This document shows, in pieces, positions 4,653 through 26,354 of a stretch of DNA of 64,000 nt (position 1 is the first letter of the stretch; each line of letters opens with the position of its first letter). A program made the position numbers and the translations under genes. A model generated the notes under the pieces. The model saw only the letters and a program-made list of their open reading frames with translations, had not been told where the DNA came from and ran no database searches. Source of the DNA: Candidatus Kerfeldbacteria bacterium (GTDB lineage Bacteria > Patescibacteriota > Patescibacteriia > UBA10025 > JAHIVO01); NCBI GenBank assembly GCA_047946875.1, contig CP181398.1, forward strand, positions 574,514 through 638,513. The letters run 5' to 3'.

Positions 4653-5831
4653 TTAATCAATAGGGTTATTTCCGCTATCAATCTCAATTTTATCATCATA
4701 ACCGTCACCGTCTGTATCAGACTTATTATCGTTAGTTTGATAAACCAATTCTAAATAGTATGGGAGCCCATCATTATCATTATCTAAATCAATATCATCT
4801 TTTGCTACACTTTCCATATTTATAATATCAATTTCTCCTTTTTCTAATCCATCTTGGAAAACTAATTCTCTTATCATAAAAAAATAATACATTCTAAAAA
4901 ACGGAAACCTTACAATAATTGCGTCATCTTTTGTAAATCCTGGGGGGTAATCTATTTTCTCTGGACCAAAAACCATTCCAAAATAATAATACTGTCCATC
5001 ATCAATTACTGGAGTTAATACAAAGGGATTATTTTCCATCTCTAATATTCTATTTTTTATATCTTCGTTAATATCCAAATCCTTTATTAACTCCTCGTTA
5101 GAATTAAGCAAAAAATCACCATCGGCAAATTGAAATTGCTCGTCAGGTCGCACGTTAAAATCTATACGCATAAAATCAAGGTCATCTTGAGAAGAATAAT
5201 TAATTCGATTTTGAAATGCACTATATACTTCCTTAACTCTATCACCTACTAAAGAATGAAAAGCTGGCTGAAATTGTTCATTAGTTGATCCCCTTAATTC
5301 TTCAAGTCTATTGCCCCACGCTAGTAACTTAACATAATCATCCCAATATATTTCACTAATCCCAACATTTTCTAGTACTAATTTTTTATTATCACCAGTG
5401 TACTTTCCATTTATTAAATTTATATACTCTGTAATGGGTTTAAGTTCAATCCCCATTCTTATAATTGCTTCCTCAACTACATATCTATTTATAAATAAAT
5501 TTAAAGCAATAATTTCTTTTGGAGTTTTATTTAAATCTACTGGCATAATAAACTGCTGTTCCATACCTATAATAAATCCAGCCAGAGAATAGTTTGTTTC
5601 CATTTCACCTAACATTTCAACAATTCTTTCAAATTCAGTCTTATTAATATTATTATTAAAAACGGTTGCTATAGTATTGGCATCAACACTATTAATATTT
5701 ATATTTTCTATAACGGAATTATTGACATCAGATATATCTGACACTTCATTATTATTGACAGATAAATAATAAAATACGCCTCCTCCTATCAATACAACAA
5801 TGATAATAATTAAAATTAATATTTTATTCAT
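4653..5831 (-). CDS. hypothetical exported or membrane-anchored protein with a C-terminal Ca-binding-like DxDxDG acidic tail
   Basis: 392 aa with an N-terminal hydrophobic helix (ILILIIIIVVLIGGGVFYYL) and a C-terminus ...DTDGDGYDDKIEIDSGNNPID. AAAGGAG lies upstream of the ATG. I recognise no family. Confidence 0.55.
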   Translation of the reverse strand: MNKILILIIIIVVLIGGGVFYYLSVNNNEVSDISDVNNSVIENININSVDANTIATVFNNNINKTEFERIVEMLGEMETNYSLAGFIIGMEQQFIMPVDLNKTPKEIIALNLFINRYVVEEAIIRMGIELKPITEYINLINGKYTGDNKKLVLENVGISEIYWDDYVKLLAWGNRLEELRGSTNEQFQPAFHSLVGDRVKEVYSAFQNRINYSSQDDLDFMRIDFNVRPDEQFQFADGDFLLNSNEELIKDLDINEDIKNRILEMENNPFVLTPVIDDGQYYYFGMVFGPEKIDYPPGFTKDDAIIVRFPFFRMYYFFMIRELVFQDGLEKGEIDIINMESVAKDDIDLDNDNDGLPYYLELVYQTNDNKSDTDGDGYDDKIEIDSGNNPID

Positions 5832-6035
5832 ATTTTTATACTCCTTTGTTAATAATATATATAAACCCCCATAATATAGTTATACATTGGCACCTCACCC
5901 TCATGTGGTACACCCCCTAATCGCTATATATTATCTCTTAGCTTTATTATATGACTTATGGATAGTTTTGGCTATCCTAAAGGGAATATGTGTTGTATTG
6001 CGTCCACAATACCAGGATGTTATAGATTATAAATT

Positions 6036-7265
6036 TTATGCATGACTCCCTGCCACATATCCAGTTGTCCAACACAATTGCAATGAATACCCACCAGATG
6101 GCCTACTTATATGCAATAAATCACCTGTTACATAAAGATTGTCATACAAACGTGAACGCATAGTTTTACCATCCACTTCTTTGATAGAAACCCCCCCATC
6201 TGTTATTACAGCTCGATTAGCCCCCATCAATCCAGTGATTGTAGCAGGCATTGCTTTGAGTAAATTTACTATCTCTTTTCGTTGCTCTTTGGTAACACTA
6301 TGAACCTTAATATCTGGATCAAAAGTTAGCATTGAAAGTAAAGCATCAGTTATACCATCAGGAGTAATTTCTGAAAAAATATTTATTAGAATTTTATTTT
6401 TATTTGCATTAAATACTTTTGTGATTCTTTTATCAAGAGTACCGAGATCTGTGTCAGGATAAGCGTCAATCTCCATGGTAACTTCTCCTTCATGTAATAG
6501 CTTGTAAACTTTTGCTGCCAAGTTTAATATCATTGGTCCAGAAAATCCAAAGTGTGTAAATAAAATTTTTCCCTTCTTCTTGATTACGCTCTTGCCATCT
6601 ACAAAAAAAGTAACCTTAATAGCTGATAGAGAAACTCCTGATAATTTTTTTACCCAAGATTCCTTTACAGCCAACGGGACTATGGTAGGTGTTGAGTCTT
6701 CAACAGTATGCCCTAATTTTTTTAACCATGTAAAACCATCTCCCGTTGAGCCAGTCTCAGGATGAGATTTACCTCCAGTAGCAAGAATAAAAGAAGTTGC
6801 CGTTATTTTTTTACCATTTACGATAATATGAGACACTTTCTTATTACTGCCTACTATTTCATCTACATTTACACCCTTTCTTACTTCCACTCCACCTTCT
6901 TTCATATATCGTTCCATAGTTTTGGAAACATCATTTGCTTTTTCCGATTCTGGGAAAGCTCTCTTTCTTGCTTGGACTACTAGGGGTAAATTTTGTTTGG
7001 CAAAAAAATCAAATGTATCTTCCATACCAAATTGATTAAATGAAGAATATAAAAAATTCTTTGCGTTTCCATAATTTGATAACAAGATTGTTTCTGATTC
7101 TTCTGCGTTGGTGATATTACATCTTCCGCCACCAGAGATATCTAACTTAACTCCAAGTTCTTTATTTTTTTCCAACAACAAAACACTCTTACCACGACTA
7201 GCGGCAGTACCTGCAGCCATCATCCCTGATGGACCTCCTCCGATTACAATTATATCGTATTTCAT
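6036..7265 (-). CDS. FAD-dependent flavoprotein of the HI0933/YhiN family (NAD(P)/FAD-dependent oxidoreductase)
   Basis: 409 aa. The N-terminal DIIVIGGGPSGMMAAGTAASRGKSVLLLEKN Rossmann motif followed by GGGRCNITN is the signature of the HI0933/YhiN family. Confidence 0.8.
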   Translation of the reverse strand: MKYDIIVIGGGPSGMMAAGTAASRGKSVLLLEKNKELGVKLDISGGGRCNITNAEESETILLSNYGNAKNFLYSSFNQFGMEDTFDFFAKQNLPLVVQARKRAFPESEKANDVSKTMERYMKEGGVEVRKGVNVDEIVGSNKKVSHIIVNGKKITATSFILATGGKSHPETGSTGDGFTWLKKLGHTVEDSTPTIVPLAVKESWVKKLSGVSLSAIKVTFFVDGKSVIKKKGKILFTHFGFSGPMILNLAAKVYKLLHEGEVTMEIDAYPDTDLGTLDKRITKVFNANKNKILINIFSEITPDGITDALLSMLTFDPDIKVHSVTKEQRKEIVNLLKAMPATITGLMGANRAVITDGGVSIKEVDGKTMRSRLYDNLYVTGDLLHISRPSGGYSLQLCWTTGYVAGSHA

Positions 7266-21510: not shown

Positions 21511-23979
21511 AGGAAAAATATTTACACCTCCACGAAATCCTGTATGATGTGTAAAAAATTGGGATTTAACAGTACCCCACATATCAAAAATTCTAACTTG
21601 TGGACCCATTCCAGCTCCAGGAGCAGTCACGATTTCATTTACCCCATCAGCATCAACATCAGCAATAAAAGAAGAAAAATTTCCTCGTAGATGATTACTA
21701 TAAGCAAAGAATTGTGACAATACTTCCCCTCTTGTATTAAATACCCTGACATGTGGACCTGCATTAGATTCAGGCGTAGCAATAATTTCATTTACCCCAT
21801 CAGCATTTACATCACCAATAGAGATATTTAAACCTCCACGGAAAGTCTCAGCATAAGCGAAAAATCTTCCTATAAGCGTACCGTCACCTTTAAACATTGC
21901 TACTTGAGGGCCTAAACCTGACTTTGGAGTTATTATAATATCAGAAACGTCATCAGCATTTACATCACCAACTGATAAATTATATCCTCCACGAATAGTT
22001 GGAGCATATGCCCAAAACTGAGAAACCAGCGTTCCATCTTTTTCAAAAACTCTCACCTGTGGTCCAGCGCTAGATTCTGGCATGGTGATGATTTCAAACA
22101 TTCCATCATTGTCTACATCAGCTAATGCAATACTAACACCTCCACGGAATGTCTCAGCATATGCATAAAACTGAGACTCTAAATTACCATAGCTATCTAA
22201 AATTCTTATATGAGGCGCTGCACCTTGTTTAGGTACTGCAACTATCTCAACTCTCCCATCGTCGTCTATATCTCCAGCCGCCATATTAATACCGGCTCTC
22301 ATATTTGAGGTATAAAACATAAACTCTGCTATTTGATAACCCGCTGAGTTAAATAATCTTACTAATGGCTCGGCACCCACTCCTGGAGCAATTATAAATT
22401 CAGATATACCATCAGTACCCAAATCAATAGAAGTAGCCGTCATACCAAATCTTAAAGAAGAATCATATGCAAAAAAATTAGTAAGTGTTTCTCCCAAATA
22501 ATTTTTAATTATTACTTGTGGGCCACCAGCACTTATTGGAGTAGCTAATATATTTACAGGAGTTGCAACTTCTATTGGCTTTATTCTTTGAGTAAAAATA
22601 TCATGATTGTATCCAGGATTAGTATAATGATTCCTTTCATCCTCCCATACTACTATAATACCCCTATTTCCGTCATTTGCTACGGAATATCTATACCGAT
22701 TGCCGTCACCTGTTGACACTAAATACCCTTCGTTACCCCATAAAAGTCTGCCGTTTACATCAACTTTTTGCATATACAAATCGGACCACATTTGTGGTGT
22801 ATCGGTTGAAGCGTATGTTGTGAAAAAAACATTTCCCCTCCCATCCGCAAGTAGCTCGGGCGCATAATGAGAAAGAGATATGTCAATAATTCCTATTCCG
22901 TCACTTCCCCATTTGAGATTTCCTTCTTGATCAATCCTCTGACCATACATCTTAGTAATTGTGTCATTCCAGCTCACCCAACCGACTACCAGACCACCAA
23001 CACCATCCGAAATTATCATTTCATGCATATTACTGACCATATCTGAAATTAATACTCCATCATTTTCCCATTGCATATCTCCATCAAGATTAATTTTTTG
23101 CACACGTAAATCTCCATAATTACCTATTCCTTCCTTGAATAAAACATAAATATTCGACCCACTTATCACTACGTTTTGATTGCCATACCAAAATTTGACA
23201 GATGATGCAACGACGACATCTGAATTCCAGATACGTTCTCCATCACTTGTAATTCTCTGGCCATAAATTACATTATCATCCTGCCAAAAAACTACCGATC
23301 CTCCATCTTCTGTTAAAGCAAGACTAATTTTGCTAATCTCTAATCCTGAAAAATCGTAAGTTGTTTCTGAAATCGCCTTACCTTCAGTGCCCCACAGTAA
23401 AGTTCCAGCAGTATTTATCCTATTTGCATAAACTACATTATTTTTAATCCAGACAATTATTGCGCCACCATTGCTATCTGAAATGACTTGCACTCCGCCC
23501 TCATTTGTCTGATCATGAGACACCTGCACGCCATTATTTGTCCACTGCACCTCACCACTTACATTAATTCGCTGAGTATATATATCAGTGTTATATTCCT
23601 CATCTCGATTATCCTGCCATACAACAATGGCACCATGCTGGGAATCGCTAACGACGTGGGCAGCTCCGCTTCCACCGCTCTGCGCTACAATCGCTTTTAC
23701 CTGCCCGCTCCATTGAGCAACTCCATCACTATCAATCCGTTTTGCATAAATACCGGAAGCAGATCCTTGGTCAGACATCTTATAAAAAAATAATCCTCCC
23801 CCATACCCATCACCAACCACTTTCGGAGTCGGACCATTACTATCTGATAATACAACAAATTCACCATTCTCAGTCCATTTTACTTCATCATTTTCCATGG
23901 ATGCATATACTTGAGCAGGTATTAAAATAAACATTCCTGTAACCAACAAGGTAATTAATACTTTTTTCATAGTTTTCAA
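21502..23979 (-). CDS. large secreted repeat protein with an N-terminal 8x repeat and a C-terminal 7x FG-GAP-like beta-propeller
   Basis: 825 aa with a signal peptide. The N-terminal half carries about 8 repeats of the type D-[IL]-Y-x-Q-R-I-x-x-x-G-x-x-x-W. The C-terminal half carries about 7 repeats of the type FFAY...RGG.N..IGDV[DN]ADGVxEII..P..GAGP[HQ]VR[IV]F, which is FG-GAP-like with DxDxDG loops. Confidence 0.7.
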   Translation of the reverse strand: MKTMKKVLITLLVTGMFILIPAQVYASMENDEVKWTENGEFVVLSDSNGPTPKVVGDGYGGGLFFYKMSDQGSASGIYAKRIDSDGVAQWSGQVKAIVAQSGGSGAAHVVSDSQHGAIVVWQDNRDEEYNTDIYTQRINVSGEVQWTNNGVQVSHDQTNEGGVQVISDSNGGAIIVWIKNNVVYANRINTAGTLLWGTEGKAISETTYDFSGLEISKISLALTEDGGSVVFWQDDNVIYGQRITSDGERIWNSDVVVASSVKFWYGNQNVVISGSNIYVLFKEGIGNYGDLRVQKINLDGDMQWENDGVLISDMVSNMHEMIISDGVGGLVVGWVSWNDTITKMYGQRIDQEGNLKWGSDGIGIIDISLSHYAPELLADGRGNVFFTTYASTDTPQMWSDLYMQKVDVNGRLLWGNEGYLVSTGDGNRYRYSVANDGNRGIIVVWEDERNHYTNPGYNHDIFTQRIKPIEVATPVNILATPISAGGPQVIIKNYLGETLTNFFAYDSSLRFGMTATSIDLGTDGISEFIIAPGVGAEPLVRLFNSAGYQIAEFMFYTSNMRAGINMAAGDIDDDGRVEIVAVPKQGAAPHIRILDSYGNLESQFYAYAETFRGGVSIALADVDNDGMFEIITMPESSAGPQVRVFEKDGTLVSQFWAYAPTIRGGYNLSVGDVNADDVSDIIITPKSGLGPQVAMFKGDGTLIGRFFAYAETFRGGLNISIGDVNADGVNEIIATPESNAGPHVRVFNTRGEVLSQFFAYSNHLRGNFSSFIADVDADGVNEIVTAPGAGMGPQVRIFDMWGTVKSQFFTHHTGFRGGVNIFPAY

Positions 23980-24002
23980 ATTTAATAATTATAATGATTT
24001 TA

Positions 24003-24039
24003 GTATACCAAAAAACACCTCATTCAGCGAGGCGCCTTA
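24003..24039 (-). terminator. terminator + promoter cassette directly after tRNA-Trp, with compensatory stem changes
   Basis: Minus strand CGCCTCgctgaatGAGGTG-TTTTTTGGTATACT. The stem sequence differs from the other copies but its pairing is maintained. Confidence 0.5.
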
Positions 24040-24114
24040 TGGCGGGAGCACTAGGACTCGAACCTAGAATAAGGGTTTTGGAGACCCTTGTGATAGCCAT
24101 TTCACTATGCTCCC
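24040..24114 (-). tRNA. tRNA-Trp (anticodon CCA), CCA end encoded
   Basis: Read by eye on the minus strand: GGGAGCATAGTGAAATGGCTATCACAAGGGTCTCCAAAACCCTTATTCTAGGTTCGAGTCCTAGTGCTCCCGCCA. It has a 7-bp acceptor stem, a TTCGAGT T-loop and anticodon loop CTCCAAA. Confidence 0.85.
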
Positions 24115-24133
24115 ACATAAAAACGAAATGTAA

Positions 24134-24289
24134 TTATTTCGTTTCTTTATGCTGTGTATGTTTTTTACACCATTTACAGAATTTCTTTAACTCTAATCTA
24201 TCCTTAAGAAGTTTTTTATTTTTCTTAGAATAATGTGTAATTTGATGACATTCACTGCATTCAAATTTTATCAGATTGTCTTGTGACAT
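24134..24289 (-). CDS. rpmG: 50S ribosomal protein L33
   Basis: 51 aa ORF absent from the track because it is under 60 aa. MSQDNLIKFECSECHQITHYSKKNKKLLKDRLELKKFCKWCKKHTQHKETK carries the CxxC...CxxC zinc ribbon and the RLELKK-C-C-KHT-HKETK signature of L33. Confidence 0.85.
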   Translation of the reverse strand: MSQDNLIKFECSECHQITHYSKKNKKLLKDRLELKKFCKWCKKHTQHKETK

Positions 24290-24327
24290 ATATTTTTTAT
24301 TATTTAACTATTTTAATAACTAATTAT

Positions 24328-24420
24328 CCGTGGCAAAACGGTATTACATCTATCCTTGCCTAAGCCACCCGTCCCGCGATGCGGGACGACCTCCCACTTA
24401 TTAGCGTAACTGGCCAAACA
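24328..24420 (-). pseudogene. tRNA-derived fragment: a tRNA-Thr(TGT)-like 3' half whose T-arm is replaced by a GTCCCGC-ATC-GCGGGAC hairpin
   Basis: The minus strand reads ...GGGAGGTCGTCCCGCATCGCGGGACGGGTGGCTTAGG. It shares the AGGTCGTC...GACGGGTGGCT segment with the 3' part of the adjacent tRNA-Thr(TGT). It has no canonical D-arm or T-loop. Confidence 0.3.
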
Positions 24421-24443
24421 AATGTATTCATTTATCCAACCAC

Positions 24444-24517
24444 AGCCACCCGTCGGGTTCGAACCGACGACCTACTGTTTACAAAACAGTTGCTCTAGCC
24501 AACTGAGCTAGGGTGGC
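24444..24517 (-). tRNA. tRNA-Thr (anticodon TGT), no encoded CCA
   Basis: Minus strand: GCCACCCTAGCTCAGTTGGCTAGAGCAACTGTTTTGTAAACAGTAGGTCGTCGGTTCGAACCCGACGGGTGGCT. It is a cloverleaf with a TTCGAAC T-loop and anticodon loop TTTGTAA. Confidence 0.85.
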
Positions 24518-24582
24518 TGCGATAGGACAAATTATGCTTTTTAAAAAACTTTTGCAAATTAATTACTACTAATAACTGCAAA

Positions 24583-24669
24583 TGGGCAGGGAGGGATTCG
24601 AACCCCCGAAGGCCGAAGCCAGCAGATTTACAGTCTGCCCCGTTTGACCACTTCGGTACCTACCCGCCC
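24583..24669 (-). tRNA. tRNA-Tyr (anticodon GTA), long variable arm, no encoded CCA
   Basis: Minus strand: GGGCGGGTAGGTACCGAAGTGGTCAAACGGGGCAGACTGTAAATCTGCTGGCTTCGGCCTTCGGGGGTTCGAATCCCTCCCTGCCCA. It is a type II tRNA with anticodon loop CTGTAAA, the TTCGAAT T-loop, and one G-U pair in each of the acceptor and T stems. Confidence 0.85.
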
Positions 24670-24915
24670 ATTTATAGTTATTATATTTTTAATTAACCTT
24701 TTAAACGCCTCTCCACCCTTATATGACTTTATTTGTTTCTCTCTTTTTACAGCTTCAATTTTATTATTAAATTTTTCAATATATATTAATTCCCAAGGCA
24801 TATATCGCTTAGTATATCTTACTTTACCAGAATTATGTTGCCCTAATCTAATTTCAATGTTTTCAGTAAAACCAATATAATACTTATTAATTATTTCACT
24901 TTTTATAATATATAC
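24628..24915 (-). CDS. GIY-YIG nuclease family protein (YhbQ/UPF0213-like), probably with a disrupted or non-ATG start; its 3' end overlaps tRNA-Tyr
   Basis: The minus-strand frame is open from 24920 to the TAA at 24628-24630, which lies in the tRNA-Tyr anticodon loop. Translation ...NVYIIKSEIINKYYIGFTENIEIRLGQHNSGKVRYTKRYMPWELIYIEKFNNKIEAVKREKQIKSYKGGEAFKRLIKNIITINGR... carries the GIY...YIG spacing, the Arg and the PWELxY-E catalytic core. An in-frame TGA sits immediately upstream at 24921-24923. The only nearby ATG (24913-24915) is +1 out of frame; deleting one T would give MYNVYIIKS. The ORF is missing from the track. Confidence 0.55.
   Translation of the reverse strand, partial: VYIIKSEIINKYYIGFTENIEIRLGQHNSGKVRYTKRYMPWELIYIEKFNNKIEAVKREKQIKSYKGGEAFKRLIKNIITINGRVGTEVVKRGRL
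24657..24684. repeat. 28-bp direct repeat, copy 1: tRNA-Tyr 5' end (first 13 nt) plus its -10 region
   Basis: tacctacccgcccatttatagttattat is identical to the copy at 25000-25027. It spans the first 13 nt of tRNA-Tyr and the upstream TATAAAT box. Confidence 0.8.
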
Positions 24916-24999
24916 ATTAATACATATTTTTCAGATTTATGCCGCCAATGGCGGTACACGCACTCTGCCTATTTTAGTTAAACGTAGGCCAGTCCCGCT

Positions 25000-25027
25000 A
25001 TCAGCGGGATACCTACCCGCCCATTTA
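25000..25027. repeat. 28-bp direct repeat, copy 2, upstream of the GIY-YIG gene
   Basis: Perfect copy of 24657-24684. It is followed by the hairpin TCCCGCTGATAGCGGGA and a GC-rich leader rather than by a tRNA body. Confidence 0.8.
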
Positions 25028-25198
25028 TAGTTATTATTTATTTTCAATTTACTTTTTTATATACAATCCAACCATAATAATTAAGTAGGGGTCCCCGATC
25101 CCGCTCAGCGGGATTGTGGGAAGCCAGCTTATTACTGAAAGTGCAGTGTATTAAACTTGTTTCGATACACGAAACTCATAACAATAGAGAGGGCGTGG

Positions 25199-25295
25199 AG
25201 CCGTTGTGCGGATTCTCCGCCTTAGGCGGATGCGCCTTTGGCGCAGAACCATATAATGCAGGTCTAACTCCTTACTCCGCCAGAGACAGACAGGC
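25199..25295 (-). pseudogene. degenerate tRNA-Thr(GGT)-like pseudogene with insertions
   Basis: The minus strand GCCTGTCTGTCTCTGGCGGAGTAAGGAGTTAGACCTGCATTATATGGTTCTGCG[CCAAAGGCGCATCCGCCTAAGGCG]GAGAATCCGCACAACGGCTCC aligns to the neighbouring tRNA-Thr(GGT): GTAAGGAGT-AGGTCTGCGG...GAATCCGCACATCGGCTC. A roughly 25-nt insertion replaces the T-loop and the D-arm is degenerate. Confidence 0.4.
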
Positions 25296-25323
25296 ATGGA
25301 ATTGATCTACTTCACCCCGCCAG

Positions 25324-25396
25324 AGCCGATGTGCGGATTCGAACCGCAGACCTACTCCTTACCATGGAGTTGCTCTACCAACTGAGCTACATCGGC
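25324..25396 (-). tRNA. tRNA-Thr (anticodon GGT), no encoded CCA
   Basis: Minus strand: GCCGATGTAGCTCAGTTGGTAGAGCAACTCCATGGTAAGGAGTAGGTCTGCGGTTCGAATCCGCACATCGGCT, with anticodon loop ATGGTAA. Confidence 0.85.
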
Positions 25397-25439
25397 TCAA
25401 GCGGGGCAAGCCGAGTCTACTGACAGACATGATATTAAT

Positions 25440-26354
25440 TTACTTCTTTTCCTCTTTTAAAGAATCAATTTCCTCTTTTATTTCATCTAATTTTTCATTA
25501 TCAGGATTTGCTTCTCTCAATTGATCATAATACTTATTAGCCATTACAAAATCCTTTAATTTTACTGCTACACTTATTGCCGCATTTAGATTTCTAGGAT
25601 TCTTTGGTTCTAATTTTACTGCCTCTTCATAACATTCTAATGCTTTTTTATATTCACTTGTAGCCATATATACATCACCCAAATCTACATGATAACTAGC
25701 CACTTCATTATTCAATGAGATTGATTTAAGATAATCTTCTGTTGCTTCTTCAGTTTTTCCTTCTTCTACTGCAATCTTACCTAGATGTTCCAGAGCTACA
25801 TCATCTTGAGAATTAATCTTTAATAAATACTGATAAATTTCTTTAGCGTGTTCATAATCTTTCATCTCAAAATATACATCTCCCAAACCTTCATATGCCT
25901 CATTACTTTTTTCATCCAGACTAATAATCTCAATATATTTTTCTTCCGCGAATTTAAATTCTTCTTTATCGACTAAATCTTCTGCTTCTTGCAATAAAAT
26001 AGTAATACTTTTTTCCTGCTCAACTTTATCCATTGGTGTTTCCACTCGAATTTTTTCTGAATATTTCTTTTCTAGGTTTTTCATCTGACTATAAAATCTT
26101 TTCAACATAGGTTCGCGTTTCTCATCTGATTTTTCTTCATCCACATTATCCTTGAATAGTTTTTTTACATTCATTGATTTAAATTTTCTAACGAGCCTTC
26201 CTTCGATTAAACCTTTCTTTATTTGGTCTTGCTTATGTTTTGTTAAAGCTTCAATGTTTATTGCAGCTAATACAGAAAACTTCTTTGCTACTACATAAAA
26301 TATTGTGGCTACACAGATAACTATTATTATTATGGCTATAATATCTATTATCAT
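25440..26354 (-). CDS. TPR-repeat protein with an N-terminal TM anchor
   Basis: 304 aa. An N-terminal hydrophobic helix is followed by several 34-aa TPR-like units: AYEGLGDVYFEMKDYEHAKEIYQYLLKIN, ALECYEEAVKLEPKNPRNL and others. Confidence 0.7.
   Translation of the reverse strand: MIIDIIAIIIIVICVATIFYVVAKKFSVLAAINIEALTKHKQDQIKKGLIEGRLVRKFKSMNVKKLFKDNVDEEKSDEKREPMLKRFYSQMKNLEKKYSEKIRVETPMDKVEQEKSITILLQEAEDLVDKEEFKFAEEKYIEIISLDEKSNEAYEGLGDVYFEMKDYEHAKEIYQYLLKINSQDDVALEHLGKIAVEEGKTEEATEDYLKSISLNNEVASYHVDLGDVYMATSEYKKALECYEEAVKLEPKNPRNLNAAISVAVKLKDFVMANKYYDQLREANPDNEKLDEIKEEIDSLKEEKK

What the first reader, a model, noticed from the sequence alone, without database searches (positions are those of the whole stretch)
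24600..25030. Small GIY-YIG nuclease cassette inserted into a tRNA operon, bounded by 28-bp direct repeats made of the tRNA-Tyr 5' end and its promoter
A perfect 28-bp direct repeat (tacctacccgcccatttatagttattat, at 24657-24684 and 25000-25027) flanks a roughly 340-bp segment. That segment consists of a GC-rich hairpin leader plus a YhbQ-like GIY-YIG ORF. One repeat copy is the genuine start of tRNA-Tyr together with its TATAAAT box. The other copy sits upstream of the nuclease gene, so the nuclease appears to have captured a duplicate of the tRNA promoter. The nuclease reading frame runs 40 nt into the tRNA-Tyr body, and its stop codon lies in the anticodon loop. The nuclease frame lacks an in-frame ATG. 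The only nearby ATG is one T away from being in frame, which suggests a recent frameshift, a non-canonical start, or a sequencing error. This looks like a minimal mobile or selfish cassette targeting a tRNA gene, with no integrase or transposase.
Basis: partly seen in the sequence, partly recalled or inferred. Interest (0 to 1): 0.6.

Follow-up and report, generated by a model that had tools for sequence, protein, structure and literature searches.

The report
Small nuclease cassette riding tRNA genes
A tiny, now frameshifted GIY-YIG nuclease gene sits between a hairpin-studded dead copy and the live copy of tRNA-Tyr, and the same layout recurs at tRNA genes in many uncultured bacteria, which points to a selfish element that lives on tRNA genes and that I could not find described.

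Summary
The exact 28-bp repeat lies at 24657-24684 and 25010-37, not 25000-27. The ORF is a GIY-YIG domain (Pfam E=3e-16). Its stop codon is U35-A36-A37 of tRNA-Tyr. Its true ATG (24925) is one extra T out of frame.

The repeat is not a simple target duplication or a captured promoter. It is the best-preserved part of a decayed copy of an older unit: the ORF 3' end, the leader and the tRNA-Tyr 5' half. GC-rich hairpins interrupt the D-loop and anticodon loop of that copy.

The layout is family-wide:
- In 59 of 76 metagenome loci the ~80-aa nuclease gene abuts a same-strand tRNA (Tyr, Ser, Thr or Pro); 0.5% is expected.
- Most loci carry a cognate pseudo-tRNA copy.
- That copy is split after G34/35 by a conserved double hairpin, which covaries.
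- Tandem arrays occur.
- Related Kerfeldbacteria-like genomes have the Thr-Tyr site either occupied or empty.

The protein is closest to the minimal Slx1-like UPF0213 proteins, not to classical homing endonucleases.

Best reading (confidence 0.5): a selfish nuclease/tRNA-duplication cassette, here a dying copy whose tRNA-Tyr now occupies the slot where a relative has only a pseudogene. The mechanism is inferred, not shown. I found no description of this architecture in the searchable literature.

The parts
24583..24665 (-). Intact tRNA-Tyr(GTA). It is the only tRNA-Tyr in the window and encodes no CCA. It directly follows, and overlaps, the nuclease ORF.
   Evidence: ARAGORN. Rfam tRNA 58.6 bits. 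Its trailer matches the trailer of the pseudo-Tyr in L087, not that of the intact Tyr genes of L085/L087.
24657..24684 (-). Repeat copy A: 19 nt of leader plus tRNA-Tyr nt 1-9. It also codes for the non-homologous tail of the ORF.
   Evidence: the repeat finder D2.
24628..24925 (-). GIY-YIG nuclease gene of the Slx1-like/UPF0213 type. The ATG is at 24925-24923. A +1 frameshift (extra T) lies at 24919/24920. The conserved domain ends near 24690. The tail reads through the leader and 38 nt of tRNA-Tyr to TAA 24630-24628.
   Evidence: Translation. Pfam PF01541 E=2.9e-16. About 80-aa homologues at 50-67% identity. PDB profile hits to UPF0213 and SLX1. The truncated 57-aa call is shared by all long contigs of this organism.
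24932..25018 (-). Pseudo-tRNA-Tyr 5' part forming the leader of the ORF. In order: nt 1-9 (25018-25010); a hairpin TCCCGCTGATAGCGGGA replacing the D-arm (25009-24993); the anticodon-stem 5' strand GGCAGAgTG (24969-24961); a degenerate first hairpin; hairpin TACCGCCATTGGCGGCA (24956-24940) inserted after G34; then TAAATCTG (24939-24932).
   Evidence: Sequence. Hairpin searches. Covariance-model hit at 24928-24998(-), 25.3 bits, E~1e-6. Same layout in L002, L088 and many other loci.
25010..25037 (-). Repeat copy B: leader plus tRNA-Tyr nt 1-9 of the pseudo copy.
   Evidence: the repeat finder D2.
25038..25075 (-). Probable degraded remnant of the 3' end of an older GIY-YIG ORF. It resembles 24685-24722, which encodes ..KGGEAFKRLIKN.
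   Evidence: Pairwise alignment A5. Weak on its own in AT-rich DNA. Clear equivalents exist in L088, L024, L036, L054 and L019.
25196..25283 (-). Pseudo copy of the 3' half of tRNA-Thr(GGT), running from the anticodon loop to the 3' end. Two GC hairpins (25231-25245 and 25216-25230) are inserted in its T-loop.
   Evidence: the repeat finder D11 and D20. Hairpin list. Weak model hit at 25207-25257. Analogous pseudo-Thr fragments in L085, L087 and L088.
25324..25396 (-). Intact tRNA-Thr(GGT), enclosed by a GC-rich leader/trailer helix (25389-25406 pairs with 25315-25332).
   Evidence: inverted repeat I7.
24363..24392 (-). Pseudo 3' fragment of tRNA-Thr(TGT). Its T-loop is replaced by the hairpin CCCGCATCGCGGG. 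It lies downstream of the intact tRNA-Thr(TGT) at 24443-24518.
   Evidence: Sequence. Hairpin pattern. Comparison with the intact gene.

Best explanation
The window holds a decaying copy of a selfish cassette that lives on tRNA genes.

The unit
- It is an ~80-aa stand-alone GIY-YIG nuclease gene (Slx1-like/UPF0213 clade).
- Its 3' end abuts the 5' end of a tRNA gene.
- It is preceded by a dead copy of the same tRNA's 5' part.
- Conserved GC-rich hairpins break the loops of that dead copy, above all a double hairpin placed right after G34/G35 of the anticodon loop.

Proposed mechanism (inferred, not shown)
1. The nuclease makes breaks at tRNA genes or at the hairpin/cloverleaf DNA structures there.
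2. Homologous repair, primed from the universally conserved tRNA sequence, copies hairpins + ORF + a fresh tRNA 5' part into the broken gene.
3. A working tRNA is regenerated downstream, and the old 5' part is left as a hairpin-marked pseudogene.
4. Repetition gives tandem arrays.
5. Because the ORF-to-tRNA gap is 0-40 nt, the tRNA is most simply co-transcribed with the ORF (not measured). Loss of the cassette would then risk the tRNA.

This genome
- The nuclease gene is frameshifted and the upstream pseudo-Tyr is eroded.
- The cassette's tRNA-Tyr is the only tRNA-Tyr in the window and sits in the slot where L087 has only a pseudo-Tyr. The resident slot used by the relatives is empty here.

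Shown:
- the anatomy;
- the family-wide association with tRNAs;
- conservation and covariation of the hairpins;
- arrays;
- presence/absence among relatives.

Inferred:
- nuclease activity and its target;
- repair-based copying;
- the role of the hairpins.
For: 1. Anatomy in the window.

2. Same synteny and architecture in relatives.
   - L002: exact 40-bp repeat covering 5 nt of leader plus tRNA-Tyr 1-35, double hairpin after G34, ordinary ATG.
   - L088.

3. Family-wide tRNA adjacency.
   - 59 of 76 testable metagenome loci have a same-strand tRNA starting within -60..+50 nt of the end of the ORF match. The expectation from flank tRNA density is 0.5%.
   - The stop codon lies 1-39 nt before the tRNA in 43 loci and inside it in 18.

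4. Upstream pseudo copy.
   - 37 of 58 loci have an exact repeat of at least 14 nt of the downstream tRNA's 5' part, 35-160 nt upstream of the ORF.
   - The repeat typically ends at tRNA position 35-37.

5. Hairpins.
   - Perfect GC-rich hairpins reach 1.76 per locus in the 100 nt before the ORF, against about 0.2 elsewhere.
   - The double hairpin has conserved sequence, is 98% paired, and one pair covaries as CG/GC/UA.
   - It is oriented like the ORF.
   - Nested hairpins occur in L036, L069 and L075.

6. Arrays and homogenisation.
   - L019 has two units. The tRNA(1-36)+hairpin part is 76/76 identical, while the remaining 253 aligned columns (spacer, ORF and pre-tRNA leader) are 83% identical.
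   - L090 (Draconibacterium) has three units.

7. Patchy occupancy among close relatives.
   - L085, L086 and L087 lack the ORF at Thr-Tyr; the window, L088 and L002 have it.

8. Reciprocal retention of two tRNA-Tyr slots.
   - The window's Tyr and its trailer correspond to L087's hairpin-bearing pseudo-Tyr.
   - The slot used by L085, L086 and L087 is vacant in the window.

9. Catalytic residues are invariant across 61 homologues.

10. Precedent: the T4 SegB GIY-YIG homing endonuclease sits in a tRNA cluster and recognises a tRNA T-loop motif (PMC2330249).
Against: - The protein is only a catalytic domain, with no DNA-binding domain.
- It groups with Slx1-like/UPF0213 proteins (E=8e-14) rather than with I-TevI-type homing endonucleases (E=7e-3). 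Sequence-specific homing is therefore not expected from the protein alone.
- The regenerated tRNA keeps the presumed target, so self-cleavage would not be prevented.
- No close relatives occur in phages, plasmids or 2.9 M viral contigs, so no vehicle for transfer was seen.
- In the Kerfeldbacteria-like clade the ORF diverges about as much as the host PSP1 protein: ORF 59% and 54% identity against PSP1 64% and 59%. That fits old vertical descent with losses as well as it fits mobility.
- A pure homing model does not need the conserved hairpins.
- The metagenome loci were picked through one peptide motif (QIKSYKGG). Some are near-duplicates, and the covariation alignment was fitted to the model.
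Confidence: 0.5

Rival explanations
1. Hairpin-centred element. The mobile DNA is the GC-rich (double) hairpin module, a MITE-like or 'double-hairpin' repeat. It inserts into the single-stranded loops of tRNA gene copies or replaces their arms. The Slx1-like GIY-YIG is its structure-specific nuclease and acts mainly in cis. The tRNA duplications are collateral products of the breaks.
For: - The hairpin sequence, including a bulged A, is conserved across hosts of 33-53% GC and across tRNA types, with covariation.
- Insertions occur in D-, anticodon- and T-loops and inside other hairpins.
- In the Pro-type loci whole D- and T-arms are replaced by CCCCGCC-N4-GGCGGGG hairpins.
- Modules persist next to tRNA-Thr(TGT) without any ORF in L086 and L087.
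- Slx1-type nucleases are structure-specific (PMC1564403).
Against: - The modules do not spread through the genome. In the 64-kb window they occur only in the tRNA cluster.
- No target-site duplication or second element end is visible.
- Insertion versus replacement is not distinguished.
- This model is largely compatible with the best explanation rather than exclusive of it.
Confidence: 0.2
2. RNA-level partnership. The hairpin-bearing pseudo-tRNA is a functional RNA transcribed with the nuclease mRNA. It could be a tRNA mimic serving as a processing signal (RNase P/Z punctuation), a stabiliser, a regulator, or a decoy/antitoxin for a nuclease that acts on the cognate tRNA or its gene. The locus would then be a conserved gene-RNA module rather than a mobile element.
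For: - The pseudo-tRNA and hairpins always lie on the ORF's strand and directly abut it.
- They are kept identical while the ORFs diverge.
- In the Pro-type copies the cloverleaf topology is preserved, with arms swapped for stable hairpins.
- The ORF stop often lies inside the tRNA, so tRNA processing and translation of one transcript would compete.
- Fusion of Slx1-like GIY-YIG domains to a tRNA methyltransferase has been noted (PMC1564403).
Against: - Characterised GIY-YIG enzymes are DNases (own knowledge).
- The extent of the pseudo copy varies widely: 5' half, 3' half or whole, with hairpins in different loops. There is no single conserved RNA architecture.
- The anticodon stem 3' of the hairpins decays quickly.
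- Patchy presence among relatives argues against a housekeeping role.
- G-U pairs are not enriched over mismatches in the hairpins.
Confidence: 0.15
3. Nothing special. An ordinary UPF0213 repair gene happens to sit in a tRNA operon, and the repeat is a local slippage duplication, so the association is a lineage-specific accident.
For: - UPF0213 genes are common.
- The window copy is broken.
- The ORF's divergence tracks the host's in this clade.
Against: - 59 of 76 loci from many hosts, both CPR and Bacteroidota, show tRNA adjacency against 0.5% expected.
- Cognate pseudo-copies exist for at least four tRNA species.
- The hairpin module is conserved.
- Arrays occur.
Confidence: 0.05

Closest known systems
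Phage T4 SegB, a free-standing GIY-YIG homing endonuclease in the T4 tRNA gene cluster (PMC2330249)
   Same: - A GIY-YIG gene lodged between tRNA genes.
- It recognises a conserved tRNA-gene motif (the T-psi-C stem-loop).
- It drives inheritance of itself together with the neighbouring tRNA genes.
- It has no intron, integrase or transposase.
   Different: - SegB belongs to the I-TevI-like homing clade and carries a DNA-binding region. The protein here is a bare ~80-aa Slx1-like domain.
- The SegB abstract mentions no pseudo-tRNA duplications or hairpin modules. I did not read the full text for them.
- SegB is a phage gene; this element is chromosomal.
Prokaryotic Slx1-like / UPF0213 (YhbQ, BH0048, EF2693) stand-alone GIY-YIG proteins (PMC1564403; PDB 1ZG2, 1YWL)
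   Same: - Best sequence relatives (E=8e-14 and 1e-10).
- Same minimal size.
- No conserved C-terminal Asn.
   Different: - Those proteins are regarded as vertically inherited repair or structure-specific nucleases.
- I found no report of tRNA-gene adjacency for them.
- The subfamily here has its own C-terminal motif REKQIKSYKGGxAFKxLI.
Free-standing GIY-YIG ORFs of fungal mitochondria that insert into a host gene and bring a replacement copy of the displaced gene end, and the GC-rich 'double-hairpin elements' of Allomyces mtDNA (recalled from memory: Paquin, Laforest and Lang, 1994 and 2000; not retrievable here)
   Same: - A mobile nuclease ORF plus a partial duplication of the invaded gene, which keeps the gene functional and leaves a pseudo-fragment.
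- GC-rich double hairpins that insert into loops of structured RNA genes.
   Different: - Protein-coding targets in organelles, against tRNA genes in bacteria.
- A different GIY-YIG clade.
- This link is a recollection, not a test.
tRNA-gene-targeting integrative elements (genomic islands and prophages with tyrosine integrases)
   Same: - They use conserved tRNA genes as landing sites.
- They restore the gene with an element-borne copy.
- They leave a direct repeat of part of the tRNA.
   Different: - They rely on an integrase and duplicate the 3' part of the tRNA (own knowledge).
- Here there is no integrase, mainly the 5' part is duplicated, and the cargo is only 0.3 kb.
Insertion sequences in CPR rRNA genes that encode GIY-YIG proteins and are neither group I nor group II introns (PMC11270868); group I introns at positions 35/36 of Patescibacteria tRNAs (PMC13011429)
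   Same: - The same phylum.
- GIY-YIG ORFs lodged in structured-RNA genes without a recognisable intron.
- The anticodon loop at 34-36 is the favoured site.
   Different: - Those sit inside the functional gene and must be removed from the RNA.
- Here an intact tRNA copy is kept beside the interrupted one, and no intron model matches.

Membership tests
GIY-YIG nuclease superfamily (Pfam PF01541) | Profile match above the curated cut-off | tested here: met
   60 bits against a cut-off of 22.6, E=2.9e-16.
GIY-YIG nuclease superfamily (Pfam PF01541) | Conserved catalytic residues (Tyr of GIY, Tyr of YIG, Arg, His, Glu) | tested here: met
   Y3, Y14, G16, R24, H28, R59 and E60 are invariant or nearly so in 61 homologues, and all are present in the window ORF.
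Prokaryotic Slx1-like / UPF0213 clade | Closest to UPF0213/SLX1 rather than to the UvrC or homing clades. Stand-alone minimal domain. No conserved C-terminal Asn. | tested here: met
   1ZG2 8.4e-14, 1YWL 1.1e-10, SLX1 4e-6, I-TevI 6.8e-3. Homologues are 76-90 aa with a single Pfam domain. No conserved Asn follows REKQIK in A1. The feature definition comes from PMC1564403.
Homing endonuclease gene (free-standing, Seg-like) | Site-specific cleavage of the allele that lacks the gene | not testable with these tools
   Requires biochemistry or genetic crosses.
Homing endonuclease gene (free-standing, Seg-like) | Catalytic domain joined to a DNA-binding domain that gives site specificity | tested here: not met
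   About 80 aa with the GIY-YIG domain only.
Homing endonuclease gene (free-standing, Seg-like) | Presence/absence polymorphism at one conserved site among related genomes | tested here: met
   The window, L088 and L002 are occupied. L085, L086 and L087 lack the ORF at Thr(GGT)-Tyr. Loss and gain cannot be told apart.
Homing endonuclease gene (free-standing, Seg-like) | Insertion destroys the recognition site in the carrier | tested here: inconclusive
   The pseudo copy is interrupted by hairpins at G34/35, but an intact tRNA copy with the same sequence remains.
Integrase-mediated tRNA-targeting island | Tyrosine or serine recombinase gene next to the att repeat, and duplication of the tRNA 3' part | tested here: not met
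   No such gene lies between or beside the repeats. The repeat covers the leader and the 5' part.
Group I (or II) intron in a tRNA anticodon loop | Match to intron covariance models, with an interrupted gene as the only copy | tested here: not met
   Rfam finds nothing but four tRNAs at gathering threshold, and only the four tRNAs and chance-level noise (no intron model) at E<=10. An intact tRNA lies alongside.
IS200/IS605- or REP/RAYT-like hairpin elements | HUH (Y1) transposase, with hairpins at both element ends | tested here: not met
   The only ORF is a GIY-YIG. Hairpins lie on one side of the ORF in Tyr/Ser-type loci.

The most novel reading that the evidence does not exclude
A class of tRNA-gene-resident selfish elements, spanning Patescibacteria and Bacteroidota, that I could not find described. 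A minimal Slx1-like GIY-YIG nuclease works together with conserved GC-rich hairpin modules that occupy the loops of tRNA gene copies. The hairpin-marked tRNA mimic, as DNA structure or as RNA, supplies the specificity that the 80-aa protein lacks. The element persists by regenerating, and eventually replacing, the host's essential tRNA gene.
Probability: 0.3. Interest if true: 0.8.

Novelty: new variant of a known kind. Interest (0 to 1): 0.62.

Why it matters
- The stand-alone UPF0213/Slx1-like nucleases have no agreed function. If this reading is right, one large subfamily would be tied to tRNA genes.
- The pseudo-tRNA fragments and odd hairpin insertions that litter tRNA clusters of CPR genomes, confuse tRNA annotation and may contribute to contigs ending at these loci would have an explanation.
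- It would show a route by which a very small selfish gene makes itself hard to lose: it takes over an essential tRNA gene.
- The hairpin module plus an 80-aa nuclease would be a compact system for testing structure-directed DNA cleavage.

Tried and rejected
- **Rfam.** At gathering threshold over the whole window, and at E<=10 over 23900-25500, Rfam found only the four tRNAs and noise. There is no intron, tmRNA or known sRNA in the GC-rich stretches.
- **NCBIfam.** No family matched.
- **Promoter scan.** The repeated TATAAAT is not flagged, and no terminator lies between the ORF and the tRNA.
- **Group I intron or archaeal-type intron reading of the hairpins.** Rejected: the inserts are too short, no model hits, and the interrupted copies lack a 3' half.
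- **Integrase, transposase or target-site-duplication reading.** Rejected: no such gene exists, the repeat length varies from 10 to 66 nt and up to a full tRNA, and one repeat end is fixed in the anticodon loop.
- **Phage or plasmid vehicle.**
  - Only homologues below 40% identity were found, and these are not next to tRNAs.
  - The subfamily and the hairpin module are absent from IMG/VR.
- **Assembly error as the cause of the frameshift.** Unlikely, because all long contigs of this organism give the same truncated gene call.
- **Literature.** Six searches found no description of the GIY-YIG / pseudo-tRNA / hairpin architecture. The library is limited to open-access papers and bioRxiv.
- **Not run.** Structure prediction and the large representative-protein search were skipped because the PDB profile hits already placed the protein.
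Full report
**1. What is in the window**

All relevant genes are on the minus strand. Read 5' to 3' on that strand, the order is as follows.
- A TPR-protein gene ends at 25440.
- tRNA-Thr(GGT) lies at 25396-25324.
- A GC-rich stretch (50-57% GC in a ~30% GC genome) spans 25320-25040.
- Repeat copy B lies at 25037-25010.
- A hairpin-rich leader follows.
- The GIY-YIG frame runs 24925-24628.
- Repeat copy A lies at 24684-24657.
- tRNA-Tyr lies at 24665-24583.
- tRNA-Thr(TGT) lies at 24518-24443.
- A short GC-rich stretch follows.
- rpmG (L33) lies at 24289-24134.
- tRNA-Trp lies at 24114-24040.

The organism is an uncultured Candidatus Kerfeldbacteria (Patescibacteria). Its PSP1 protein is 100% identical to a protein named that way in NCBI. 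The locus is in GCA_008633345.1.

**2. Checking the observation**

The 28-bp exact repeat is real, but its second copy is at 25010-25037.
- Copy A is 19 nt of leader plus the first 9 nt of tRNA-Tyr.
- The ORF matches Pfam GIY-YIG (E=2.9e-16).
- It aligns over about 78 residues with ~80-aa homologues at 50-67% identity and carries every invariant residue.
- Homology stops at ..KRLIKN.
- The remaining 20 codons read through the leader and 38 nt of the tRNA to a TAA made of anticodon bases U35-A36 plus A37.
- The frame has no ATG, GTG or TTG before Met 24801.
- The ATG at 24925 is followed by TAT, one extra T, then AAT GTA TAT ATT. Without that T the product starts MYNVYIIKSE, which fits the family consensus MYxVYILKS.
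- All long contigs of this organism carry the same truncated 57-aa gene call. The frameshift is therefore probably real.

- Neither copy is picked up by the sigma-70 scan.
- The relative L002 has the repeat without a TATAAT.

**3. The repeat is the tip of a larger, decayed duplication**

After copy B the upstream copy continues in this order:
- the hairpin TCCCGCTGATAGCGGGA, where the D-arm should be;
- GGCAGAgTG, against GGCAGACTG in the tRNA;
- a degenerate stretch;
- the hairpin TACCGCCATTGGCGGCA;
- TAAATCTG, which is the rest of the anticodon loop and the 3' strand of its stem;
- the ATG, 6 nt further on.

So the upstream element is a pseudo-tRNA-Tyr covering roughly positions 1-43. Hairpins interrupt it in the D region and between G34 and U35.

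Upstream of copy B, similarity to the ORF's last codons (..KGGEAFKRLIKN) is still detectable. That similarity is weak on its own.

**4. The same architecture in relatives**

L002 is a Patescibacteria MAG whose PSP1 is 59% identical. It has identical synteny.
- It has an exact 40-bp repeat, made of 5 nt of leader plus tRNA-Tyr 1-35.
- The double hairpin CCACCGCCTTTGGCGGGG TGCCGCCAGAGGCGGCA sits between G34 and U35 of the upstream copy.
- TAAATCT follows, then an ordinary ATG and a GIY-YIG ORF that also runs into the tRNA and stops at the same TAA.

L088 (64% PSP1 identity) is the same. Its upstream copy is preceded by a recognisable remnant of a GIY-YIG 3' end.

Three equally close relatives lack the ORF at this site. 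In L085, L086 and L087 about 90-130 nt separate Thr(GGT) from Tyr.
- L086 has a different GIY-YIG (39% identity) directly upstream of tRNA-Trp.
- L086 and L087 have a pseudo-tRNA-Thr(TGT) with a hairpin pair after G35, next to the intact gene and with no ORF.

The window's tRNA-Tyr is not in the slot used by L085, L086 and L087.
- In L085 and L086, Tyr lies between the pseudo-Thr fragment and a conserved ~110-nt structured sequence ('X').
- In the window, X follows the pseudo-Thr fragment directly, and the cassette lies beyond it.
- The window's Tyr 3' end and trailer align with a hairpin-bearing pseudo-Tyr in L087, not with the intact Tyr genes.

The simplest history is two Tyr slots, one resident and one cassette-borne, with reciprocal loss. 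In the window only the cassette's tRNA remains.

**5. Family-wide test**

A scan of JGI metagenomes with the family alignment found 338 relatives, of which 80 loci were kept.
- In 59 of the 76 loci that have sequence after the ORF, a same-strand tRNA starts within -60..+50 nt of the end of the ORF match.
- The tRNA density in the flanks predicts 0.5%.
- The tRNAs are Tyr(GTA), four Ser isoacceptors, Thr(TGT) and Pro.
- The stop codon is 1-39 nt before the tRNA in 43 loci and inside it in 18.
- In 37 of 58 testable loci an exact repeat of at least 14 nt of that tRNA's 5' part lies 35-160 nt upstream of the ORF. It most often ends at tRNA position 35-37.
- Local alignments show the same plan as in the window: tRNA 1-34/35, one or two hairpins, WAAA plus a few more tRNA bases, then 5-25 nt, then ATG.
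- Perfect GC-rich hairpins reach 1.76 per locus in the 100 nt before the ORF, against about 0.2 elsewhere.

**6. The hairpin module**

The module is conserved in sequence.
- HP1 is CCaCCGCC-loop-GGCGGGG, with a bulged A.
- HP2 is T-N-CCGCC-loop-GGCGG-N'-A.
- It is 98% paired, and N/N' covaries (CG, GC, UA) in both the seed and the larger alignment.
- The seed was chosen by a pattern and the larger alignment was fitted to the model. The figures therefore lean towards the structure. The N/N' pair, however, was not constrained by the pattern.

A covariance model finds the module on the ORF's strand just upstream of the ORF in about two thirds of loci, by my own reading of the table. In the window it hits 24928-24998 at 25.3 bits.

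Modules also occur in other places:
- nested within each other (L036, L069, L075);
- in D-loops;
- in anticodon and T-loops of pseudo 3' copies downstream of the intact tRNA (L015, L078).

In the window, GC hairpins of this kind occur only in the tRNA cluster. Two of them sit in the T-loop of a pseudo 3' half of tRNA-Thr(GGT), at 25283-25196.

**7. Variants**

*Pro-type loci*
- The order is intact tRNA-Pro, a terminator-like hairpin, the ORF, then a tRNA-Pro copy.
- In that copy the D-arm, and sometimes the T-arm, is replaced by CCCCGCC-N4-GGCGGGG (L081, L023, L080).
- A Draconibacterium genome (Bacteroidota) has at least three such units in tandem.

*Other variants*
- A Shapirobacteria genome has pseudo-5'(hairpins), intact tRNA-Ser, ORF, then pseudo-3'(hairpins).
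- L019 has two complete units before the intact tRNA-Ser. The first 76 nt of the two units (tRNA 1-36 plus hairpins) are identical. The remaining 253 aligned columns (spacer, ORF and pre-tRNA leader) are 83% identical. The tRNA/hairpin part is therefore homogenised or selected.
- A neighbour-joining tree of the 78-aa domains groups the sequences partly by tRNA type, with some switches. Resolution is low.

**8. What the protein is**

A profile of the family hits the structural-genomics proteins UPF0213 BH0048 and EF2693 (E=8e-14 and 1e-10). Next come eukaryotic SLX1 (4e-6) and, only weakly, I-TevI (7e-3).

In the classification of Dunin-Horkawicz et al. this is the 'non-eukaryotic Slx1' clade. 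That clade consists of minimal, stand-alone, structure-specific-type nucleases and is distinct from the homing/UvrC lineage.

There are no close relatives in phages, plasmids or IMG/VR, and the hairpin module is absent from IMG/VR.

**9. Interpretation**

The data fit a selfish cassette tied to tRNA genes. The nuclease gene is always welded to a tRNA copy. Cognate partial duplicates flank it, units are reiterated, occupancy is patchy, and the cassette's tRNA can become the cell's working gene.

I propose three steps.
- Nuclease-induced breaks occur at tRNA genes or at their hairpin structures.
- Repair is primed from the conserved tRNA sequence.
- That repair copies hairpins + ORF + a new tRNA 5' part, regenerating a tRNA and leaving a hairpin-marked pseudogene.

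These steps are inferred. The main difficulties are:
- the lack of any specificity domain;
- the survival of the presumed target in the regenerated tRNA;
- the unexplained need for conserved hairpins;
- the fact that, within the Kerfeldbacteria-like clade, ORF divergence tracks host divergence, so old residence with losses is as good a fit as recent mobility.

Two rivals remain open.
- The hairpins may be the actual mobile or recognised DNA for a structure-specific nuclease. This is largely compatible with the main model.
- The hairpin-bearing tRNA mimic may be a functional RNA partner, acting as a processing signal, regulator or decoy.

A chance association is excluded by the statistics.

**10. 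Novelty**

Six literature searches found no description of this architecture. The nearest published cases are:
- T4 SegB;
- GIY-YIG-encoding non-intron insertions in CPR rRNA genes;
- group I introns at 35/36 of Patescibacteria tRNAs;
- mobile-element-linked tRNA fragments in an archaeon.

From memory, fungal mitochondrial GIY-YIG ORFs that carry a replacement gene end, and Allomyces double-hairpin elements, are close analogues. I could not retrieve those papers.

I rate it a new variant of a known kind. The window copy itself is a decaying example.

Noticed in passing
window 25085-25195 (-): A conserved ~110-nt GC-rich structured sequence ('X': CGCCCTCTCTATTG...GGGGACCCC). It is homologous to the sequence that follows tRNA-Tyr in L085 (about 6016-6130) and L086 (about 6036-6140), with apparent compensatory changes (TATTGT/GTAATA against TATTGC/GCAATG). 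It has no Rfam match and may be an unannotated small RNA of this lineage.
   Followed up: partly
window 25315-25332 with 25389-25406, and 24430-24451 with 24511-24532: Both tRNA-Thr genes sit inside extended GC-rich leader/trailer helices that prolong the acceptor stem. In relatives these helices, with the tRNA inside, lie within the D-loop of an outer pseudo-tRNA, giving a tRNA nested in a tRNA (L087 about 5780-5965, L088 about 6560-6740, L085 about 5735-5900). In the window, 25407-25440 looks like a degenerate outer 5' piece.
   Followed up: partly
L086 6630-6875: A different small GIY-YIG gene (39% identical to the window's) lies between rpmG and tRNA-Trp, ending 19 nt before the tRNA. A second GIY-YIG lineage therefore shows the same tRNA-abutting habit.
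   Followed up: no
L090 1250-1960 (Draconibacterium sp., Bacteroidota): A tandem array of at least three near-identical units: a GIY-YIG ORF, a tRNA-Pro-like gene whose D-arm is a CCCCGCC-ATCG-GCGGGG hairpin, and a terminator-like hairpin. It lies downstream of a canonical tRNA-Pro(CGG). ARAGORN calls the hairpin-bearing copies tRNA-Pro.
   Followed up: partly
L005, L012, L024, L034, L035, L037, L043, L066 and other loci: Many metagenome contigs end within about 20-300 nt after the GIY-YIG ORF. The reiterated tRNA/hairpin units may be what breaks short-read assemblies there.
   Followed up: no
L086 about 6165-6185 and L087 about 6122-6140: The motif GGGATTCGAACGGGCAG, which reads like the reverse complement of a tRNA T-arm/acceptor 3' end, sits at the start of the hairpin-rich pseudo-tRNA stretches in both relatives. 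I have no explanation for it.
   Followed up: no
window 24583-24585 compared with L085 6010-6015 and L087 6065-6070: The window's tRNA-Tyr does not encode CCA (..CCCATTTG), whereas the intact tRNA-Tyr genes of L085 and L087 do (..CCCACCA). This fits two distinct tRNA-Tyr lineages or slots in the clade.
   Followed up: partly
window 24134-24289 (-): rpmG (L33) lies between tRNA-Thr(TGT) and tRNA-Trp, with no tuf, secE or nusG next to it in the window. The usual Thr-Tyr-(Gly)-Thr-tuf / rpmG-secE-nusG neighbourhood is rearranged in this lineage.
   Followed up: no
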